DNA of 64,000 nt from Acidimicrobiaceae bacterium (lineage in GTDB: Bacteria > Actinomycetota > Acidimicrobiia > Acidimicrobiales > Aldehydirespiratoraceae), in contig VYFQ01000016.1 in NCBI GenBank assembly GCA_009842325.1, positions 16,505-80,504 on the forward strand, in the 5' to 3' direction. Shown here in pieces: positions 47,969-61,458 of the stretch. Position numbers and translations under genes: made by a program. Below the pieces are notes generated by a model, which worked only from the letters and a program-made list of their open reading frames with translations, did no database searches and was not told the origin of the DNA. Each line of letters begins with the position of its first letter. Position 1 is the stretch's first letter.

Positions 47969-48364
47969 TCAGGGTCGGACTTCCACGAAGCCAGCCGCGC
48001 TGAAGTCTCCGTCGAACGCAAAGGCTTCAGTGATCCGCTCGCGTCGCATGATCTCGAAGCTGGTGGCGTCTACGTAGGAGTAGGAACGCTCGTCGTGGCG
48101 AGCGAGCCACTCCCATGCCCTCTCGTCGATGGCCGTATCGACCACGGCTACGGACACACGCGGCGACTGGCGAAGCATGGTGATGAAGCTGAGGGCGTCG
48201 GCATGACCGGCGCGGCGCTTCAGCCATGTCCAAGTCTCTCCCGCGACCAGATTGGAGGTCCGAAGCGGCCTACGGTCGCCGTGCCAGAGCAGCAACGCTT
48301 CGGGGTGGCGCCGATCTGCAGGAACCAACAGTCCGATCCAGAAGGACGTGTCGACGAATCTCAC
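47969..48364 (-). CDS. vapC: type II toxin VapC (PIN domain), copy 1
   Basis: 131 aa. PIN acidic residues (FVDTS, ETW, YVDATSF, FDGDF). 4-nt overlap with the upstream antitoxin. Confidence 0.85.
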   Translation of the reverse strand: MRFVDTSFWIGLLVPADRRHPEALLLWHGDRRPLRTSNLVAGETWTWLKRRAGHADALSFITMLRQSPRVSVAVVDTAIDERAWEWLARHDERSYSYVDATSFEIMRRERITEAFAFDGDFSAAGFVEVRP

Positions 48365-48585
48365 GAATCGGTGCCGTAGATGACTGCATCGAGATCATCG
48401 CTGGGTTCGACATCCACGCTGCCGACCAGCGCATCGAGCGGGTCCGAGATTGTCTCTGGGCCGTCAGCAAGACATGACCGCACCGCGTCCCGCACGTACG
48501 CCGAGCGCGACACGCCCCGTCGGGCAGCCGCGGCCGATAGCGCTTCGTCAATGTCGTCGTCGATATATAGCTGTATACGCCGCAT
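48361..48585 (-). CDS. vapB: type II antitoxin VapB (ribbon-helix-helix/CopG type), copy 1
   Basis: 74 aa from the ATG at 48585 (MRRIQLYIDDDIDEALSAAAARRGVSRSAYVRDAV). It is the C-terminal part of listed ORF 48361..48849. Confidence 0.8.
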   Translation of the reverse strand: MRRIQLYIDDDIDEALSAAAARRGVSRSAYVRDAVRSCLADGPETISDPLDALVGSVDVEPSDDLDAVIYGTDS

Positions 48586-48598
48586 AAGAGGAGTATAC
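48573..48598 (-). promoter_or_regulatory. vapB1 promoter/operator: two GTATAC palindromes 20 bp apart flanking the ATG; TATACT hexamer 6 nt upstream of ATG
   Basis: The minus strand reads GGTGTATACTcctcttATGcggcGTATACag. The TANNNT-type hexamer (48592-48597) is positioned as for a leaderless mRNA. Confidence 0.5.
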
Positions 48599-48602
48599 AC
48601 CA

Positions 48603-53963: not shown

Positions 53964-53985
53964 ACAACTGCCGGTGTCTGATGGT

Positions 53986-54011
53986 GTATACTCCATTTAT
54001 GCGGCGTATAC
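53986..54011 (+). promoter_or_regulatory. vapB2 promoter/operator: same architecture as copy 1
   Basis: It reads GGTGTATACTccatttATGcggcGTATACag. Hexamer, spacing and both palindromes are conserved although the coding DNA has diverged. Confidence 0.5.
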
Positions 54012-54223
54012 AGCTATACCTGGATGAAGACATCGACGACGCTCTGTCGGCTGCGGCTGCTCGGCTGGGGGTCTCGCGATCAGCGCTGGTGAGAAACGCC
54101 GTCAGGTCGGCTCTCGACGATGGGCCTGAGGCACTCACGGATCCTTTTGACGCTCTCGTGGGCAGCGTGGATGTTGAGCCGGACGACGATCTCGACGCGG
54201 TGATCTACGGGACCGAACTGTGA
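53999..54223 (+). CDS. vapB: type II antitoxin VapB (RHH type), copy 2
   Basis: 74 aa from the ATG at 53999 (MRRIQLYLDEDIDDALSAAAARLGVSRSALVRNAV). 59/74 residues are identical to copy 1 by manual alignment. Confidence 0.8.
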   Translation: MRRIQLYLDEDIDDALSAAAARLGVSRSALVRNAVRSALDDGPEALTDPFDALVGSVDVEPDDDLDAVIYGTEL

Positions 54224-54615
54224 GGTTCGTCGACACGTCCTTCTGGATCGGTCTGCTCGTTCCCGCAGATCGCCGTCACCCCGATGCCGTGCGATTGTGG
54301 CGCGACGGGCGCGGACCCCTCCGGACCTCCAATCTGGTGGCAGGAGAGACTTGGACATGGTTGAAGCGTCGCGCCGGCCATACCCACTCCCTCAGCTTCA
54401 TCACCATGCTTCGCCAGTCGCCGCGTGTGTCGGTAGCAGTCGTCGACTCGGCCATAGACGAGCGGGCATGGGAGTGGCTTGCTCGCCATGACGAGCGGCA
54501 CTACTCCTACGTCGACGCCACCAGCTTCGAGATCATGCGGCGCGAGCGGATCACCGAAGCGCTCGCGTTCGACGGCGACTTCAGCGCGGCCGGCTTCATA
54601 GAAGTTCGGCCCTGA
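54220..54615 (+). CDS. vapC: type II toxin VapC (PIN domain), copy 2
   Basis: 131 aa. 117/131 residues are identical to copy 1 by manual alignment. 4-nt overlap with vapB. Confidence 0.85.
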   Translation: MRFVDTSFWIGLLVPADRRHPDAVRLWRDGRGPLRTSNLVAGETWTWLKRRAGHTHSLSFITMLRQSPRVSVAVVDSAIDERAWEWLARHDERHYSYVDATSFEIMRRERITEALAFDGDFSAAGFIEVRP

Positions 54616-54636: not shown

Positions 54637-54891
54637 ATGGCCGGAGCGGTGGTGATGGTGATCGTGCTGGTGGTGGTGTTCCCGGTGGTGGTGCTGATCG
54701 GCAGCGGGATCCTGGCGGCGGCACTGGGCAGCTTCCTGAAGGTTGACTCCGACCTGGCCAACCGAGGCGACGACGGCCCCAACGAGTATCTGGAACTGGC
54801 CCGCAAGGAGGCCGAGACCGGCTACCCGCACCGGCCCGAGCCGCCGTCGCTGCGTTCTAAGCTCGAGTCGAAGATCCGGTCGGCCAGATAG
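54637..54891 (+). CDS. hypothetical small membrane protein (84 aa)
   Basis: One long N-terminal hydrophobic segment and a charged tail. It overlaps the convergent 54857..56467 gene by 35 nt. Coding status is uncertain. Confidence 0.4.
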   Translation: MAGAVVMVIVLVVVFPVVVLIGSGILAAALGSFLKVDSDLANRGDDGPNEYLELARKEAETGYPHRPEPPSLRSKLESKIRSAR

Positions 54892-56467
54892 GCGGGCAGC
54901 CGCGGTCGATCCACACCGCGGCGGCCACCGCGACGAACACGGCGTCGCTGCCGTTGACAGGCTCCGAACCGTCGTCCAGCACGTCGATCCTCACGGCCGG
55001 CATGTTGGCCGCGCTCACGATGCCGAAGGATCGGACGGTCAGGTCGTGGACGTGTCCGTCGGGATCCACCCCGAGTGACTCGCTGGTCACCCACGAATAG
55101 GCCATGTGGGCCGCACCCGTGCAGTAGGACCGCAACACGGTTTCGTCGAGAGTCCGGCCGGCCCGAACTTGCACCGCGATCGTCCCATCCGGCCCGACCG
55201 CAGCCGTAGCTGATCCGCCATCGGGCCCCGCGATCCAACCCGGCTCGCCCCGGGCCGCGGCCAGCAGCACCGCAGCCTCGGCCCAGCCCGCCCCCCGTAC
55301 CAGCGACGAGGTGGGCGGCCCCGGCACGTCGATCTCGGTGACGACTAGGCCGGGCGCCCATTCCTGGATCACGGCCGCAATGCCCGGTGTTCGCGCCACG
55401 ACGATCTCACCGGTTCCGTCAGGCCGTACTCCCGCCGCGATCGGTGGCCGCTTGGGGCCGAACTCGACGGTGTCGGGGCGGGACCACAGCACCCTCACGT
55501 GCCGACCGTGACGGCTGGCGAGCACACGGGCGGCCTCAGCCACCGGAGAGTGGAGCTTCCCGCCGAAGGCTCCGCCGTTGCCGAGCGGCGAGGCCGGCTC
55601 ACCGTCGGGCTGGCACCAGGCGGCGTCGGTCTCCAGGTAGCCGGGCTCGGTCCAGCTGGTGCGCAGGGTGACGGCCCAGTCGCCCGGAGGGACCTCCAGC
55701 GGCGGCTCCCAGCTGGCGGTGGTGCGCCGGCCCGGAACCTGCCCGGCGAGTCTTCGCGCCTCGGCGGCGGTTTCCGCCACGACCCAGCCGTGCTCGTCAG
55801 CAGCGTCGCAGTCCGGGCCGGCCCGCACAGCCACGAGGGCTCCAGCCGGGACGGTGTCGTCGGCGAATCCACCCAACCCGAGGGACACATGGGGCCCGGT
55901 CGACTGCGGTGTCCGCCCCTCGATCGTCGCCCGGAGGTCGGCCGCGGCTCTCTGATCAGAATCCAGGTCGGTAGCGGCGTCGGCGACTCCGGAAACGAGC
56001 CCGGGGTAGGCCTGCCAAGCGTCGAGAATGGGCTGCCAACCGGTACACCGGCACAGATGGGCGGCCAGAGCCCGGGCCGCGACGCGGCGATCACTGTGAT
56101 CGGCGCCCCTGTCGTGCAGCCCGGCGAAACGACAGATGATCCCGGGCGTGCAGAACCCGCACTGGCTGGCTCCGGTGGCCGCGAAGGCCCGAGCCCAGAC
56201 GTCGCGCACATCTGCGTCGAGCCCTTCGAGGGTGGTGATGGCCCGGCCCTGCACTCGACGGGCCGGGGTAACGCATGCCACCCTGGGCTGCCCGTCCACC
56301 AGCACGGTGCAGCAGCCGCACTGGCCCTGGGGGCTGCACCCGTCCTTCACCGAGCGCACCCCGAGCTGCTCTCGCAGCACGTCCAGCAGCGTGAGGCCCT
56401 CATCGGCCACCGTCACCACCGCGCCGTCGACGGTCAGTTCGAAGGGATCAGCGGCAGCGGCAACCAT
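54857..56467 (-). CDS. [2Fe-2S]-binding protein fused to a short xanthine-dehydrogenase/aldehyde-oxidase-like domain
   Basis: ATG at 56467. The N-terminus carries both small-subunit clusters (CSPQGQCGCCTV ... QCGFCTPG ... CRCTGW). The ~380-aa C-terminus resembles the distal part of MoCo-binding large subunits (GGAFGGK ... VRGAGWAEA ... ). The listed 703-aa ORF has a spurious extension across erpA. Confidence 0.65.
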   Translation of the reverse strand: MVAAAADPFELTVDGAVVTVADEGLTLLDVLREQLGVRSVKDGCSPQGQCGCCTVLVDGQPRVACVTPARRVQGRAITTLEGLDADVRDVWARAFAATGASQCGFCTPGIICRFAGLHDRGADHSDRRVAARALAAHLCRCTGWQPILDAWQAYPGLVSGVADAATDLDSDQRAAADLRATIEGRTPQSTGPHVSLGLGGFADDTVPAGALVAVRAGPDCDAADEHGWVVAETAAEARRLAGQVPGRRTTASWEPPLEVPPGDWAVTLRTSWTEPGYLETDAAWCQPDGEPASPLGNGGAFGGKLHSPVAEAARVLASRHGRHVRVLWSRPDTVEFGPKRPPIAAGVRPDGTGEIVVARTPGIAAVIQEWAPGLVVTEIDVPGPPTSSLVRGAGWAEAAVLLAAARGEPGWIAGPDGGSATAAVGPDGTIAVQVRAGRTLDETVLRSYCTGAAHMAYSWVTSESLGVDPDGHVHDLTVRSFGIVSAANMPAVRIDVLDDGSEPVNGSDAVFVAVAAAVWIDRGCPPIWPTGSSTRA

Positions 56468-56541
56468 TGAACCGCAGGTTAGATCGAGGCGCGCCAAGCA
56501 CCGGCCGCTGGAACCCCCGGCCGGCCCGGGGAATGAGAGCG

Positions 56542-58201: not shown

Positions 58202-59002
58202 CTAATTCGCCGAAGTTCGGGGGTCCTCCAACTCGACCGTCAATCCGGGGCCGAGTTCTTGGTCGACACGGTGCTGGAACATCGGGACCAGCATCGACGA
58301 CGGCATCACGCATTCGGCGCAGGCCTCGTCGGGAATGTGGAGCCGGAAGGTGATGCGGTTCCCGGACTGCTCGGCGGTCAGGTCGGCGCGGTCAGCCCGG
58401 AGGGCCACAGCCAACGACTCCACCACCGCGTCGAGGCTCCCCGGTTCGGCACCAGCGGCGGCGGCGGGGCCGGCCTCGCCGTGCAGCAGCAGGCTCTCGA
58501 CCGCGGGTGTGACCGCGTCGGCCAGAGCCGTCACCTGCTCCTCCGAGAGGCTGCCGATCGGATGCGGGACGGTGGCGAACGGGTAGTCGGCGAAGCCCTG
58601 CAGCTCGGCCATGACCTTGCCGGTGGTCGTGAAGGGCTCGGTCACGATGGCGGCCGCGGGCAGGCCGAGCCCCTCGAACCGGACGGCGTCGAGCACACTG
58701 CCCGACGAGCAACTGCCTCAATCGCCGATGGCGGCGATGATGGCGGTGGCGTCGGCGGCCAGCATCTCGACGTCCTCCGGTGCGGCCGGGAAGCTCGAGT
58801 CGGGCTTGGTCACCAGGATCGTGTCCTGGATCGGATGCCTGGCCTTGAGGTTCTCCGCCACCCGCTGGAGGATCTCGCGGCCGCGGGCCTTGCCGTTGTT
58901 GACCAGACCGAGCACAGCCCCGTCGAGGTTGGCAGGACGGGCTGCCAGCTCCCGGCCTGCGCCGGCCGGAGCCAGAGTCGGATCGATGAGAGTGACCGTC
59001 AT
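58202..59002 (-). CDS. candidate UGSC-motif selenoprotein (TGA at 58718-58720 read as Sec), 266 aa
   Basis: ORFs 58718..59305 (real start ATG 59002, MTVTLIDP...) and 58202..58696 share one frame. Only one TGA separates them. The junction reads AAIGD-U-GSCSSGSVLDAV. A SECIS-like hairpin starts 11 nt after the TGA. The downstream piece has no SD or ATG. The ATGA overlap with the upstream gene supports the 59002 start. Confidence 0.6.
58687..58707 (-). promoter_or_regulatory. SECIS-like mRNA hairpin downstream of the in-frame UGA
   Basis: The mRNA reads UGA-GGCAGUUGCU-[CGUCGGGC]-AGUGU-[GCUCGACG]. The stem is 8 bp (one G.U) with a 5-nt loop containing G and U. The stem starts 11 nt after the UGA. 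Confidence 0.45.
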
Positions 59003-60081
59003 GGGATGATTATCTCCTGGGTTACAAGCGGGACGCTGCGGTCCCGGCTCCACGTCGGGAAGAACGCCGAGTGCCCGCCGGCGTCGCCGCCGCCGACCAT
59101 CAGCGCGATGTCGTCCGGGCCGGTCCCACGCCGCACCAGGATGTCCTCGTCGCCGGGATGCACGGTCGGGTCCGACCGCATCCACCACACCGGGTCGAAC
59201 CCTTCCACGAAGCCGCCCGGCTCCACCTTGCCACCCCGCTTGACGTCGGCGAAGGAGCGGGCCGAGTGCTCGAACAGGTACCCCTGAACCTGGGACCGGC
59301 TCCACCCGGAGGCCGAGATCTTGCGGGCGTGCTCGGGCGCGAACACGATCAGCGAGCGGCCCGAGCTGAGCGAACCGAAGGCCGCCATCGCATCGGCGAA
59401 CGTCCCGAGCAGCTCGGACACCTCCGAGGAGGCGTGGTTGACGATGTTGTGGCCCGACTCGGCGGCCATGATCGTGACCGTGCTCTGCGACGGCTCATAT
59501 CCCCGGGAGACGTGGAAAGGCTCCCAGGGACACGTCGCCTCGTCCTCGGCGAAGCAGACGGCGTACTTGCCGGGCCAGCCCTGGGTGCTCTTGTCCAGCG
59601 CTCCGGGTATGGCCGCGAGGCAGTTGCGCAGCACCAGCCGGACGGTGCGGCCGATGGTGGCGTTGGGTCTGAACCCAGGCCCGAAGAGGTTCTCCTTGTA
59701 GTGGATCCCGATCCCTTCGCGGATCGGCCCGTTGACCGCGACAAGCACGGCCGCCCCGCCGGTGCTGGCCGCCACAGCGTGCAACGCGAACTCCGGGGCG
59801 CTCATGGCCTGCAGCGCGGCGCCCACCACCGGGAAGTACTCGGGCAAGCAGCCGGCCATGACGGCGTTGACGGCAGCCTTGCGGGCAGTGACGGCCATCC
59901 CTCGCCACGGGTCGTCGAGCAGCACCTCGTCGGCAGCCCAGACCCCGCCGGCCAGCATGGCGGCCACCAGCGGCTCGGTGGGCGGGACCACGGGCAGGCC
60001 GTCGGTCCAGCCGGCGGTGTAGCAGGCCTCGATGGCCTCCCACGGATCGTCGACCTGCTGGTCGCCATGAACAGGGATCAT
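58999..60081 (-). CDS. conserved-looking hypothetical protein (360 aa), partner of the UGSC-motif gene
   Basis: ATG at 60081 with GGAGGGG upstream. Normal soluble-protein composition. The stop overlaps the downstream ATG (ATGA). No family recognised. Confidence 0.7.
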   Translation of the reverse strand: MIPVHGDQQVDDPWEAIEACYTAGWTDGLPVVPPTEPLVAAMLAGGVWAADEVLLDDPWRGMAVTARKAAVNAVMAGCLPEYFPVVGAALQAMSAPEFALHAVAASTGGAAVLVAVNGPIREGIGIHYKENLFGPGFRPNATIGRTVRLVLRNCLAAIPGALDKSTQGWPGKYAVCFAEDEATCPWEPFHVSRGYEPSQSTVTIMAAESGHNIVNHASSEVSELLGTFADAMAAFGSLSSGRSLIVFAPEHARKISASGWSRSQVQGYLFEHSARSFADVKRGGKVEPGGFVEGFDPVWWMRSDPTVHPGDEDILVRRGTGPDDIALMVGGGDAGGHSAFFPTWSRDRSVPLVTQEIIIP

Positions 60082-60153: not shown

Positions 60154-61458
60154 CTAGTTGCAGAGGCCTTCTTCGCTTACGCCCCGGTGGCTGTCGCAGA
60201 TCGTCGTGCTCTCGACGGACTTGAGGGTGAACGAACCGGAATCGGAATCCTGCTGGGCGAAGACCTGCAGCCGGAAGCCGCGGACAGCGTCGTCGGGCAG
60301 ACCCAACACGTCGACGGTGATCTCGGCGAGATCGCCGCTGACGGGGGCGCCCGACACGACGACGCGAGACGGCGGATCGTCGGAGGCCACCGCCCCGGCG
60401 ACGATCCGGGCCAGCTCGGCCAGCGTCGATGCGGCGGGCGTCTCGCCCAGGACGGCGACAGTCTCGGCAGTGGCGTCAGAGGTAGCTCCCAACGGCGACA
60501 GGAAGGCGCTGCTGGCCCATCCGACCGCTTCGGCCATGCGGATCTCGTGCCAGATGGTGGTGGGGAGCTTGCGGGTGTTGCCGGTGGCGATCACGCCGCG
60601 ATTGAGATCGAGGGTGGCAATGAGTGCGTCGGAGTCGGCCTCGCGTACGTAGACGACCGGCTCGCTGCCCACGTTCATCACGTTGTCCAGCCGGGCGACG
60701 ATCTCTCCGGCGGGCACGTCACGCACGTTCAGCACGCTGTCGTGGGAGACACCCACCACCGCGAGCGCCGCGCCAGCCGGCGGGCCGAACTCGTAAGGCT
60801 CGCCGGGAAGGGACACAGCCGGCTCGGGCGCGCCGTCGGCTCCGTCCGTCGACGCTTCCCCGGACTCGTCGCCGCCGGTTTCGGAGGCGTCGGCGTCCTC
60901 GGTGTCCGTGGCCGCGTCCGTGTCGTCGGCACCTGTCTCGGCGGCAGGCTCCGCCGTCTCGTCGGCCTCCTCGGTGGCGCCGGCTGCGTCGGTCTCTGTG
61001 GCGCCCGTCGTCTCAGCCTCGGTCTCCTCGTCCGATGTGTCCGCCGGCTGCGTACCACCATCGGCCGCAGCGGCAGCCTGGGCCGCGGCGAGGGCCTCCA
61101 CCGCCGCGGCGGCCTGAGCCGCGGCCGCCTCGGCCGCAGCCGCAGCCTGCTGGGCCATCACGACCGCCTCCTGGGCCACGACAGCCGCCTCGTCGGCCTT
61201 GGCCGCCGACGCGGCGGACATGATGGCCGCGTCCTCGGCACTGGCCTGAGCCGCGGCAGCAGCGGTTCGCGCCTCCGCAAGGTCGGCGGTGTCGACGTCG
61301 TCGGCCGCGTCGTCGCTGCCGGAGTCGGCCACGAACGCGGCCACAAGCGCCACCACGGCGACCAGCAGCGCCACCAAGGCCAGCAACAGGGCGCGCCTGG
61401 CTACCGCCAAACTGAGCGACATCCCCATCACGGGCCTCGAGCCGTGGTCAGCTTCCAT
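60154..61458 (-). CDS. membrane-anchored protein with Ala-rich and acidic Thr/Asp/Glu-rich low-complexity stalk and C-terminal globular domain
   Basis: N-terminal TM helix (ALLLALVALLVAVVALVAAFVA). About 165 aa of low complexity follow. Then a ~220-aa domain ends with two Cys (TICDSHRGVSEEGLCN). Confidence 0.65.
   Translation of the reverse strand: MEADHGSRPVMGMSLSLAVARRALLLALVALLVAVVALVAAFVADSGSDDAADDVDTADLAEARTAAAAAQASAEDAAIMSAASAAKADEAAVVAQEAVVMAQQAAAAAEAAAAQAAAAVEALAAAQAAAAADGGTQPADTSDEETEAETTGATETDAAGATEEADETAEPAAETGADDTDAATDTEDADASETGGDESGEASTDGADGAPEPAVSLPGEPYEFGPPAGAALAVVGVSHDSVLNVRDVPAGEIVARLDNVMNVGSEPVVYVREADSDALIATLDLNRGVIATGNTRKLPTTIWHEIRMAEAVGWASSAFLSPLGATSDATAETVAVLGETPAASTLAELARIVAGAVASDDPPSRVVVSGAPVSGDLAEITVDVLGLPDDAVRGFRLQVFAQQDSDSGSFTLKSVESTTICDSHRGVSEEGLCN
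60823..61323 (-). repeat. Ala-rich then Thr/Asp/Glu-rich low-complexity coding tract (residues ~46-212)
   Basis: AAAAAQASAEDAA...AAAEAAAAQAAAAVEALAAAQAAAAA is followed by TSDEETEAETTGATETDAAGATEEADETAE... Confidence 0.8.

What the first reader, a model, noticed from the sequence alone, without database searches (positions are those of the whole stretch)
58202..59002. In-frame TGA joins two apparent ORFs into a U-G-S-C motif selenoprotein candidate with a SECIS-like hairpin
The ORF track splits this locus in two. ORF 58718..59305 ends ...IIAAIGD-TGA. ORF 58202..58696 is drawn from an internal GTG. I re-derived the minus strand across the junction: TGA GGC AGT TGC TCG TCG GGC AGT GTG CTC GAC, which reads stop/U-G-S-C-S-S-G-S-V-L-D.
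- Both pieces are in the same frame (58720-58696 = 24 nt).
- Only this one TGA separates them.
- The downstream piece has no SD and no ATG.
- The upstream piece has a well-supported start: the ATG at 59002 overlaps the preceding gene's stop as ATGA.
Reading TGA as selenocysteine gives the tetrapeptide UGSC. From memory, RefSeq naming includes a 'UGSC family (seleno)protein'. In that family most members carry Cys (CGSC) and a minority carry Sec. The joined length of 266 aa fits my recollection of it.
Eleven nt after the UGA the mRNA can form an 8-bp hairpin, CGUCGGGC-AGUGU-GCUCGACG. Its G/U-containing apical loop lies about 18 nt from the UGA. That is the geometry expected for a bacterial SECIS.
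Automated annotation would report two fragments or a pseudogene. The C-terminal ~45 aa (ITFRLHIPDEACAECVMPSSML) also resembles a NifU-C-like CxxC module.
Basis: partly seen in the sequence, partly recalled or inferred. Interest (0 to 1): 0.85.

Follow-up and report, generated by a model that had tools for sequence, protein, structure and literature searches.

The report
UGSC-family selenoprotein gene, split by annotation
The two apparent gene fragments are one gene for a selenocysteine-containing protein of the known "UGSC" family, so this is a correct catch of a gene that annotation splits, but not a new kind of thing.

Summary
On the minus strand, one reading frame runs from the ATG at 59002 to the TAG at 58202-58204. 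It contains a single in-frame TGA at 58720-58718, followed by GGC AGT TGC (U-G-S-C).

With U replaced by C, the 266-aa product passes the curated cut-offs of NCBIfam NF041046 "UGSC family (seleno)protein" and Pfam PF24696. Both matches run across the TGA.

- **TGA conservation:** the TGA sits at the same codon in all 36 related loci that carry the motif. These include 30 Acidimicrobiia MAGs down to 58% protein identity and four more distant cassettes, one from a Chloroflexota MAG. More distant full-length homologues have Cys at that position (GD-C-GSC).
- **SECIS evidence:** the seven codons (98-104) after the motif show no synonymous variation in 31 sequences.
- **Sec machinery:** contigs 99.99% identical to the window carry selA and selB starting about 315 nt beyond its right end. 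selD and tRNA-Sec could not be located.

- Sec forms are not a minority in this family.
- The family core is about 180 aa. The extra ~90 aa here is a fused Nfu-like CxxC domain.

The gene is translationally coupled to a conserved, uncharacterised 360-aa partner gene. The family has been known since 2008, and its function remains unknown.

The parts
58202..59002 (-). Complete UGSC-family selenoprotein coding sequence: 266 codons including Sec95, plus a TAG stop
   Evidence: Translation has a single internal TGA. NF041046 scores 127.1 bits (cut-off 125) and PF24696 scores 171.8 bits, both across the TGA. It aligns end to end with the Cys homologue P0263.
58718..58720 (-). In-frame TGA, read as selenocysteine (residue 95)
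   Evidence: TGA is at this codon in 31 of 31 aligned Acidimicrobiia coding sequences and in L039, L040, L042 and L043. Cys occupies this column in 34 full-length homologues.
58709..58720 (-). U-G-S-C redox motif (residues 95-98)
   Evidence: D, C/U, G and C are invariant columns in the Cys-form alignment A3. In the AF2 model of homologue P0263 the motif lies between strand 87-93 and helix 96-111.
58687..58707 (-). SECIS-like hairpin: 5' arm 58707-58700, loop AGUGU 58699-58695, 3' arm 58694-58687. It starts 11 nt after the UGA.
   Evidence: Folding energy is -12.6 kcal/mol. All pairs are kept in 13 distinct sequences, with two one-sided compatible changes. RNAalifold selects the same helix. 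Codons 98-104 have zero synonymous variation. The same stem occurs in the more distant loci L039, L040 and L042 (L039 is a Chloroflexota MAG), with a changed loop base in L042.
58445..58486 (-). Ala/Pro/Gly-rich linker (residues 173-186). Its length varies between orthologues.
   Evidence: Length and sequence vary in the orthologue translations. The equivalent segment has low confidence in the homologue model, with pLDDT below 50 at residues 183-188.
58205..58444 (-). C-terminal Nfu-like domain (residues 187-266)
   Evidence: The homologue model has alpha-beta-beta-alpha-alpha-beta topology. Foldseek hits human NFU1 C-terminal domain 2m5o (E 6.5e-3, prob 1.0) and Arabidopsis CnfU 2z51 (E 8.8e-3). 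P0263 carries a precomputed faint PF01106 NifU hit. There is no Pfam hit on the window's own domain.
58310..58321 (-). C-A-E-C motif (residues 228-231) of the C-terminal domain
   Evidence: The CxxC followed by [VILM][MLVI]P is conserved in all 36 distinct long-form sequences aligned.
58999..60081 (-). Upstream partner gene: a 360-aa conserved protein of unknown function, translationally coupled to the selenoprotein gene
   Evidence: ORF. No Pfam or NCBIfam hit. At least 7995 homologues, none with an informative name. The gene pair is adjacent in every context sampled for partner homologues.
58999..59002 (-). ATGA overlap between the partner's stop codon and the selenoprotein's start codon
   Evidence: Sequence. 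The same ATGA or GTGA junction occurs in many orthologous loci.
59014..59018 (-). AGGAG Shine-Dalgarno-like sequence, 11 nt upstream of the ATG
   Evidence: Sequence. CAGGAGAT is conserved upstream of the start codon in orthologous loci.

Best explanation
This is one intact gene for a selenocysteine-containing member of the UGSC family (NCBIfam NF041046, Pfam PF24696).

**Decoding (inferred from the standard bacterial pathway).** The UGA at codon 95 is decoded as selenocysteine. SelB carrying Sec-tRNA(Sec) binds the hairpin that begins 11 nt downstream of the UGA and delivers Sec to the ribosome. selA and selB lie about 5 kb away in the same genome.

**Domain layout.**
- An N-terminal alpha/beta domain of about 170 aa carries the U95-G-S-C98 pair where a strand meets a helix.
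- A flexible linker follows.
- In this Acidimicrobiia lineage, a fused Nfu-like domain carries C228-A-E-C231.

**Proposed function (not shown).** The U-x-x-C pair cycles between selenol/thiol and selenenylsulfide. In this way it would act as the redox subunit for the co-translated 360-aa partner protein, whose substrate is unknown. Thioredoxin-type systems would re-reduce it.

**Shown here:** gene continuity, family membership, conservation of the TGA, Cys in homologues, RNA-level constraint on the hairpin, presence of selA and selB, and linkage to the partner gene.

**Inferred:** actual selenium insertion, the redox cycle, complex formation with the partner, and any Fe-S or electron-relay role for the Nfu-like domain.
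For: - **Single frame with one TGA**.
- **Family HMMs above curated cut-offs across the TGA**.
- **Conserved TGA.** It is at the same codon in all 36 loci that carry the motif, with orthologues down to 58% protein identity and including a Chloroflexota MAG (L039).
- **Cys in homologues.** In 34 full-length homologues Cys occupies that column. The long-form homologue P0263 aligns over residues 1-265.
- **Synonymous constraint.** Mean synonymous diversity is 0.053 for codons 97-106. The gene mean is 0.33, and other equally conserved protein segments show 0.23-0.46. Codons 98-104 are invariant. AGT makes up only 3% of Ser codons locally, yet it is fixed at codon 102 in the hairpin loop.
- **Hairpin retention.** It is kept in all orthologues, with G.U to A-U and G-C to G.U changes, and RNAalifold picks it.
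- **TGA is an ordinary stop here.** It ends 2 of 7 neighbouring genes, including the partner.
- **Sec machinery.** Contigs with 2 mismatches in 15 kb to the window encode SelA (PF03841) and SelB (GTP_EFTU plus the SelB winged-helix domain PF09107) at window-equivalent positions 64315-67417. selA and selB are also near the gene in 17 related MAGs.
- **Partner linkage.** There is a 4-nt overlap with the partner gene here. The pair is adjacent in L039, L040, L042, L043 and a JGI contig.
- **Link to redox systems.** The Cys long-form homologue sits in an operon encoding a TrxB-like protein, a thioredoxin, a partner homologue and the UGSC protein.
- **Literature.** UGSC-containing proteins are a major known selenoprotein family with a UxxC motif (PMC2398784; PMC13188914).
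Against: - There is no direct evidence of selenium incorporation.
- selD and tRNA-Sec were not found in the sequence that could be read.
- The hairpin has no base pair with compensatory changes on both sides, so the shuffle controls carry no information.
- A smaller overlapping hairpin (columns 9-14 with 18-23) is equally compatible with the variation.
- The local fold is not significantly more stable than shuffled sequence.
- No Rfam SECIS model matches.
- The redox-subunit model rests only on motif position, gene linkage and analogy.
- One short Cys-form gene (L046) has no partner gene upstream.
- The structural models are of homologues, not of the window protein itself.
Confidence: 0.92

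Rival explanations
1. The TGA is a real stop. The locus would be a split or decaying gene giving a 94-aa product, plus perhaps a 164-aa product started at the GTG at 58696.
For: Gene callers annotate it this way in every public contig, as 94 aa plus 164 aa. TGA is a normal stop codon in this genome.
Against: - The same TGA, frame and flanking protein sequence are kept across orthologues of 58-96% identity and in more distant cassettes, including a Chloroflexota MAG. A pseudogene would accumulate further stops and frameshifts.
- There is no Shine-Dalgarno sequence before the GTG.
- Cys-form homologues are single polypeptides.
- Both halves form one domain in the family HMMs and in the model.
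- selA and selB are adjacent.
Confidence: 0.03
2. The TGA is a sequencing or assembly error for TGC or TGT, so the real gene encodes CGSC.
For: One base change would give Cys, and Cys forms exist in the family.
Against: TGA is present in independent assemblies. The exact partner protein occurs on 20 contigs, and of the four whose DNA was read, the three that reach this codon (L035-L037) carry TGA. The 30 Acidimicrobiia MAG loci, from short-read and long-read projects, carry it too.
Confidence: 0.01
3. The UGA is read through, but not as selenocysteine. This could be near-cognate Trp or Cys insertion, or a reassigned genetic code.
For: Sec insertion was not measured, and selD and tRNA-Sec were not located.
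Against: - TGA ends ordinary genes here, including the overlapping partner gene, so the code is not reassigned.
- The position corresponds to the catalytic Cys of a C-x-x-C pair, which is the classic Sec/Cys exchange.
- A conserved hairpin sits at SECIS spacing.
- A SelB with its SECIS-binding winged-helix domain is encoded about 5 kb away.
Confidence: 0.03

Closest known systems
UGSC family (seleno)protein: NCBIfam NF041046, Pfam PF24696, the 'UGSC-containing protein' of Zhang and Gladyshev
   Same: It passes both curated HMM cut-offs. It has the U/C-G-S-C motif in the invariant D-C-G-x-C column. Sec and Cys forms both occur. The function is uncharacterised, as in the literature (PMC13188914).
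   Different: It is a long form of 266 aa. Typical members are about 180 aa. The extra length is a C-terminal Nfu-like CxxC domain. A 'UGSC/Unknown_1' fusion was reported in 2008, but that figure is held only as an image, so identity with this domain could not be checked. The AF2 model and Foldseek point to a flavodoxin/Rossmann-like alpha/beta domain rather than the thioredoxin-like fold suggested in 2008.
Selenoprotein B subunits of glycine reductase and D-proline reductase (GrdB, PrdB)
   Same: PrdB has a UxxC selenocysteine motif (Table 2). The following points rest on established knowledge of those systems, not on tests here: they work with a separately encoded catalytic partner subunit, and the grd operons are linked to thioredoxin and thioredoxin reductase genes. 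A UGSC homologue here sits in an operon encoding a TrxB-like protein, a thioredoxin, a partner homologue and the UGSC protein.
   Different: No sequence or fold match to the GrdB/PrdB families was found. The 360-aa partner has no Pfam, NCBIfam or PDB relative. This is an analogy of mechanism only, not membership.
Nfu / NifU C-terminal domain (PF01106), for example human NFU1 and Arabidopsis CnfU
   Same: The fold of the homologue's C-terminal domain matches 2m5o and 2z51. The CxxC follows the second strand. P0263 carries a faint precomputed PF01106 hit.
   Different: The window's own domain gives no Pfam hit even at E up to 10. hhalign against the E. coli NfuA C-terminus is not significant, with probability 0.6%. 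Fe-S binding is untested.
Bacterial SECIS, with E. coli fdhF as the type example
   Same: A stem-loop lies directly 3' of the UGA inside the coding sequence. The spacer is 10 nt, the apical loop is about 18 nt from the UGA, and the loop contains G and U. The geometry criteria come from established knowledge.
   Different: The sequence is unrelated, and no bulged U is evident. SelB binding was not tested. Rfam has no model that matches.

Membership tests
UGSC family (NF041046 / PF24696) | Score above the curated HMM cut-off in one continuous match | tested here: met
   NF041046 scores 127.1 bits against a cut-off of 125, over residues 28-172. PF24696 scores 171.8 bits against 25, over residues 5-172. 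The NCBIfam margin is small.
UGSC family (NF041046 / PF24696) | U/C-G-S-C motif in the family's invariant column | tested here: met
   D94, C95, G96 and C98 are invariant in 34 Cys homologues. The window's U95 aligns to C95 of P0263.
Bacterial selenoprotein gene | In-frame UGA conserved among orthologues, with Cys in homologues | tested here: met
   TGA in 31 of 31 aligned coding sequences plus 4 more distant loci. Cys forms are documented.
Bacterial selenoprotein gene | SECIS stem-loop immediately downstream of the UGA | tested here: inconclusive
   The hairpin is present, at the right spacing, kept in all sequences and under strong synonymous constraint. However, there is no compensatory covariation, and an overlapping alternative helix fits equally well. 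No dedicated bacterial SECIS predictor was available.
Bacterial selenoprotein gene | selA and selB in the same genome | tested here: met
   SelA (433 aa, PF03841) and SelB (572 aa, including PF09107) are on contigs 99.987% identical to the window, starting about 315 nt past its end.
Bacterial selenoprotein gene | selD and tRNA-Sec in the same genome | not testable with these tools
   Neither was found in the window or any held locus. Only about 85 kb of this genome could be read.
Bacterial selenoprotein gene | Selenium present in the protein | not testable with these tools
   This needs 75Se labelling or mass spectrometry.
Nfu / NifU C-terminal domain (PF01106) | Match to the family sequence profile | tested here: not met
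   No Pfam hit for residues 175-266 at E up to 10. hhalign against the NfuA C-terminus gives probability 0.6%. The only sequence signal is a faint precomputed hit on homologue P0263.
Nfu / NifU C-terminal domain (PF01106) | Nfu fold with the CxxC after the second strand | tested here: met
   This was tested on the model of homologue P0263 (34% identical to the window protein). Foldseek hits 2m5o (prob 1.0, target-normalised TM 0.56) and 2z51 (rmsd 3.3 A over 75 columns).
Thioredoxin-fold oxidoreductases (suggested for UGSC in 2008) | Thioredoxin-like fold | tested here: not met
   The model has a repeating strand-helix topology. The top 50 Foldseek hits are flavodoxin- or Rossmann-like folds (TIR domain, ARL6, lumazine synthase, LarB), with no thioredoxin among them. 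This rests on a predicted model of a homologue.

The most novel reading that the evidence does not exclude
The 360-aa partner and the UGSC protein may form a previously unrecognised, widespread two-subunit seleno-enzyme. In this reading the partner is the catalytic subunit and the UGSC protein is its selenol/thiol redox subunit, recharged by thioredoxin-type donors. This would be a functional analogue of the glycine and proline reductases acting on an unknown substrate. The partner family is large (at least 7995 homologues), has many invariant residues and no solved structural relative. In this sponge-associated Acidimicrobiia lineage, the added Nfu-like domain may provide an Fe-S or second dithiol relay.
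Probability: 0.35. Interest if true: 0.6.

Novelty: new member of a known kind. Interest (0 to 1): 0.3.

Why it matters
- **Annotation.** In every public contig examined here this gene is annotated as two hypothetical fragments. Joining them corrects the annotation and adds a selenoprotein to sponge-associated Acidimicrobiia.
- **Function of the family.** UGSC proteins are among the most abundant aquatic selenoproteins, yet they have no known function. Two observations made here give concrete handles for experiments. The gene is consistently coupled to an uncharacterised, highly conserved 360-aa partner. In one Cys-form operon it is also linked to thioredoxin reductase and thioredoxin genes.
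- **Limits.** None of this changes what is known about selenocysteine decoding.

Tried and rejected
- **Rfam.** Searches at the gathering threshold on the window and seven loci, and at E up to 10 on the hairpin region, gave no SECIS or tRNA-Sec match. This says little for bacterial SECIS elements, as also noted in bioRxiv 10.64898/2026.04.03.716425.
- **tRNA-Sec.** ARAGORN found none in the window or in 37 loci.
- **selD.** tblastn with E. coli SelD found nothing in any held sequence.
- **Covariation shuffles.** They were uninformative because the stem barely varies.
- **Longer fold.** The longer minimum-energy fold was rejected. Its outer helices are broken in the Poriferisodalis clade, where GTCCGG becomes GTGCAC.
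- **Representative search.** The 171 aa after the TGA were used instead.
- **C-terminal domain.** Pfam gave no hit and hhalign against NfuA was not significant.
- **PDB sequence searches.** They gave nothing meaningful for either protein.
- **Partner fold.** Foldseek on the partner model gave no hit at E up to 1e-3, and the best TM-scores were 0.2-0.3.
- **2008 fusion figure.** Fig. S1A (UGSC/Unknown_1) is held only as an image, so the fused domains could not be compared.
- **Other candidates.** A scan for other in-frame TGA candidates in the window found only an ordinary gene boundary at 54613.
Full report
**1. The observation**

- On the minus strand a single frame runs from the ATG at 59002 to the TAG at 58204-58202. 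It has one internal stop, the TGA at 58720-58718, in the context ...AIIAAIGD-TGA-GGC AGT TGC....
- The mechanical ORF list splits this frame into 58718..59305 and 58202..58696, the latter starting at GTG.
- The ATG overlaps the TGA stop of the upstream 360-aa ORF (58999..60081) as ATGA. An AGGAG lies 11 nt upstream of the ATG.
- The hairpin CGUCGGGC/AGUGU/GCUCGACG occupies 58707-58687 and starts 11 nt after the UGA. It folds at -12.6 kcal/mol.
- Taken alone the hairpin is not remarkable.
  - Comparable hairpins follow 1.2% of all TGA triplets in this GC-rich window.
  - The local folding energy is at the 15th percentile.
  - The 66-nt region has z = -0.78 against shuffled sequence.
- The locus is nevertheless distinctive. 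Only two in-frame TGAs in the window have coding-like composition on both sides, and the other is an ordinary boundary between two genes.

**2. What the protein is**

- With U replaced by C, the 266-aa product matches NCBIfam NF041046 "UGSC family (seleno)protein". The score is 127.1 bits against a cut-off of 125, over residues 28-172.
- It also matches Pfam PF24696 "UGSC" at 171.8 bits over residues 5-172. Each is a single match across the TGA.
- The literature describes "UGSC-containing protein" as a major aquatic selenoprotein family with a UxxC motif.
  - The GOS survey counted 255 Sec forms and 21 Cys forms (PMC2398784).
  - The family is still listed as functionally uncharacterised in 2022 and 2026 reviews (PMC9312934; PMC13188914).

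**3. Is the TGA real and conserved?**

- A scan of one genome per species returned 32 loci, all from Acidimicrobiia MAGs. Many are sponge-associated (Ca. Poriferisodalis, Ca. Aldehydirespirator).
- Thirty of these loci hold the whole gene, and all 30 carry the TGA at the same codon, at 58-95% protein identity. One of them (L023) has a frameshift upstream of it.
- The TGA is also present in four more distant cassettes, one of them from a Limnocylindrales (Chloroflexota) MAG.
- Protein databases contain the gene only as fragments. All 120 best hits to the joined query are pieces of 156-199 aa covering the C-terminal ~60% of the query. The nine retrieved all begin MLDAV.... Gene calls on contigs show a piece of 94-99 aa followed by a second piece, both hitting PF24696.
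- The exact partner protein of the window occurs on 20 independent contigs. Three loci read from them (L035-L037) are 99.987% identical to the window over about 15 kb and carry the same TGA. This excludes a sequencing error.

**4. Cys homologues**

- A full-library search with the 171 residues after the TGA found 423 relatives.
- Among the best 150 representatives, 42 are full-length proteins with GD-C-G[SA]-C. Most are 178-205 aa, eight are 267-285 aa, and a few are longer fusions.
- At least 52 are fragments that begin just after the motif.
- In an alignment of 34 Cys forms, D94, C95, G96, C98 and P148 are invariant.
- The long Cys form P0263 aligns with the window protein over residues 1-265 at 34% identity (E 3e-49). 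Its C95 is opposite the window's U95, and the C-terminal CxxC motifs are also aligned.
- So homologues span both halves, and neither half exists as a family of its own.

**5. SECIS**

- Across 31 aligned Acidimicrobiia coding sequences, synonymous diversity averages 0.33.
- The minimum for the whole gene is the ten-codon stretch 97-106, at 0.053. Codons 98-104 (TGC TCG TCG GGC AGT GTG CTC) show no synonymous change at all.
- Other segments with equally conserved protein sequence show 0.23-0.46.
- AGT makes up only 3% of Ser codons in seven local genes, yet it is fixed at codon 102, which forms part of the loop.
- Stem variation:
  - The 8-bp stem is paired in all 13 distinct sequences.
  - Its only changes are G.U to A-U and G-C to G.U.
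  - RNAalifold predicts the same helix.
- In L039, L040 and L042 the stem is identical. Meanwhile the spacer Ser codon changes from AGU to UCC or UCU, and in L042 a loop base changes. L043 differs in the two lowest pairs and may fold differently.
- Caveats:
  - No pair shows compensatory changes on both sides, so the shuffle controls are uninformative.
  - A smaller overlapping helix (columns 9-14 with 18-23) is equally compatible with the data. Its loop would lie too close to the UGA for the usual SECIS geometry, judged from established knowledge.
  - Rfam has no matching model. Another study of Acidimicrobiia makes the same point about bacterial SECIS elements.

**6. Sec machinery**

- The window contains no tRNA and no homologue of SelA, SelB or SelD.
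- The near-identical contigs L035-L037 continue past the window's right end. The mapping is: window position = 64000 + (6082 - locus position).
- On those contigs SelA (433 aa, PF03841) lies at window-equivalent 64315-65616.
- SelB (572 aa) lies at 65699-67417. It has GTP_EFTU, the SelB beta-barrel and the SelB winged-helix domain PF09107.
- selA and selB homologues also lie 5-8 kb from the gene in 17 related MAG loci.
- selD and tRNA-Sec were not found in any held sequence. Only about 85 kb of this genome could be read, so this is untested rather than negative.
- TGA ends ordinary genes here, including the partner, so the genetic code is standard.

**7. Architecture**

- The AF2 model of homologue P0263 has mean pLDDT 89.1.
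- Its N-terminal domain is built from repeated strand-helix units. The CGSC motif lies between strand 87-93 and helix 96-111.
- A disordered linker follows, and then a C-terminal alpha-beta-beta-alpha-alpha-beta domain.
- Foldseek against the PDB matches the N-domain only to generic flavodoxin- or Rossmann-like folds (E about 5e-4 to 1e-2). No thioredoxin fold appears in the top 50.
- The C-domain matches the human NFU1 C-terminal domain 2m5o and Arabidopsis CnfU 2z51. P0263 also carries a faint precomputed PF01106 hit.
- Sequence tests on the window's own C-terminus were negative.
- This domain accounts for the 266-aa length. The family core is about 180 aa.

**8. Surroundings**

- Synteny between the window and distant loci covers only the pair of the 360-aa gene and the UGSC gene.
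- The 360-aa partner:
  - It has no Pfam, NCBIfam or PDB sequence match.
  - It has at least 7995 homologues, still about 60% identical at rank 120, and none has an informative name.
  - It has many invariant residues, for example DGLPVxPP, STGG, C176, H211, H216, EH251 and GGGxAGGHSxFFPxWSR.
  - Its AF2 model is confident (pLDDT 88.7, pTM 0.89). It has no Foldseek match in the PDB at E up to 1e-3.
- In all five other partner contexts sampled, a split (Sec-type) UGSC gene follows directly, mostly with a 1- or 4-nt overlap.
- The Cys long form P0263 lies in an operon encoding a TrxB-like protein, a thioredoxin, a partner homologue (49% identical to the window's partner) and the UGSC protein.
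- Other cassettes have a ferredoxin-thioredoxin reductase beta subunit gene upstream or a flavin reductase gene downstream.
- One short Cys form has no partner gene upstream.
- In the window itself the gene is flanked by an ApbC/Mrp-type Fe-S carrier gene and an IscA-like gene. That neighbourhood is not conserved in distant loci.

**9. Mechanism**

- **Decoding.** This is the standard bacterial SelB/SECIS route. It is inferred from the elements present.
- **Protein function.** The most likely role is a selenenylsulfide/selenol-thiol redox subunit serving the co-translated partner and re-reduced by thioredoxin-type donors. The Nfu-like CxxC domain would be an additional relay or Fe-S site in this lineage. 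This is inference from motif position, gene linkage and analogy to glycine and proline reductase, not a demonstrated activity.

**10. Verdict**

- The gene belongs to a family catalogued since 2008 that has curated HMMs. It is therefore a new, mis-annotated member of a known kind.
- The conserved partner with no structural relative, and the link to thioredoxin genes, are the only parts with some discovery value.

Noticed in passing
window 47969-48602 and 53982-54615: Two copies, about 82% identical, of a PIN-domain plus RHH_1 (VapBC-like) toxin-antitoxin pair lie about 6 kb apart. The segment between them varies between related MAGs.
   Followed up: partly
window 58999-60081 (minus strand): The 360-aa partner protein belongs to a very large, highly conserved family with no informative annotation. 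It has at least 7995 homologues, no Pfam or NCBIfam model and no PDB relative by sequence or predicted fold. It is followed by a UGSC gene in every partner context sampled.
   Followed up: partly
just beyond the window's right end (window-equivalent 64315-67417, read from L035-L037): selA and selB lie immediately past the end of the window on near-identical contigs, so the window narrowly misses the Sec machinery.
   Followed up: yes
protein P0241 (representative library): A 4303-aa predicted protein has 22 separate stretches that match the C-terminal half of the UGSC domain. Its origin and meaning are unknown.
   Followed up: no
L023 10001-10839 (OZ252146.1, Ca. Aldehydirespirator): This orthologue keeps the TGA and the GSC motif, but its N-terminal half is frameshifted. 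It could be a long-read assembly indel or a pseudogene.
   Followed up: no
window 60154-61458 (minus strand): A 434-aa Ala/Asp/Glu/Thr-rich protein with a hydrophobic N-terminal segment and no Pfam hit. At the nucleotide level it is much less conserved between MAGs (68-70%) than its neighbours.
   Followed up: no
L044 1626-4831: The Cys long-form UGSC homologue P0263 sits in an apparent operon encoding a thioredoxin-reductase-like protein, a thioredoxin, a partner homologue and the UGSC protein. Other cassettes carry a ferredoxin-thioredoxin reductase beta subunit gene or a flavin reductase gene next to the pair, and DUF3604 genes appear nearby twice.
   Followed up: partly
window 54857-56470 (minus strand): An ORF combines [2Fe-2S] Fer2/Fer2_2 domains with only weak, sub-threshold matches to molybdopterin-binding domains. 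It looks like a divergent xanthine-dehydrogenase/CO-dehydrogenase-type fusion.
   Followed up: no
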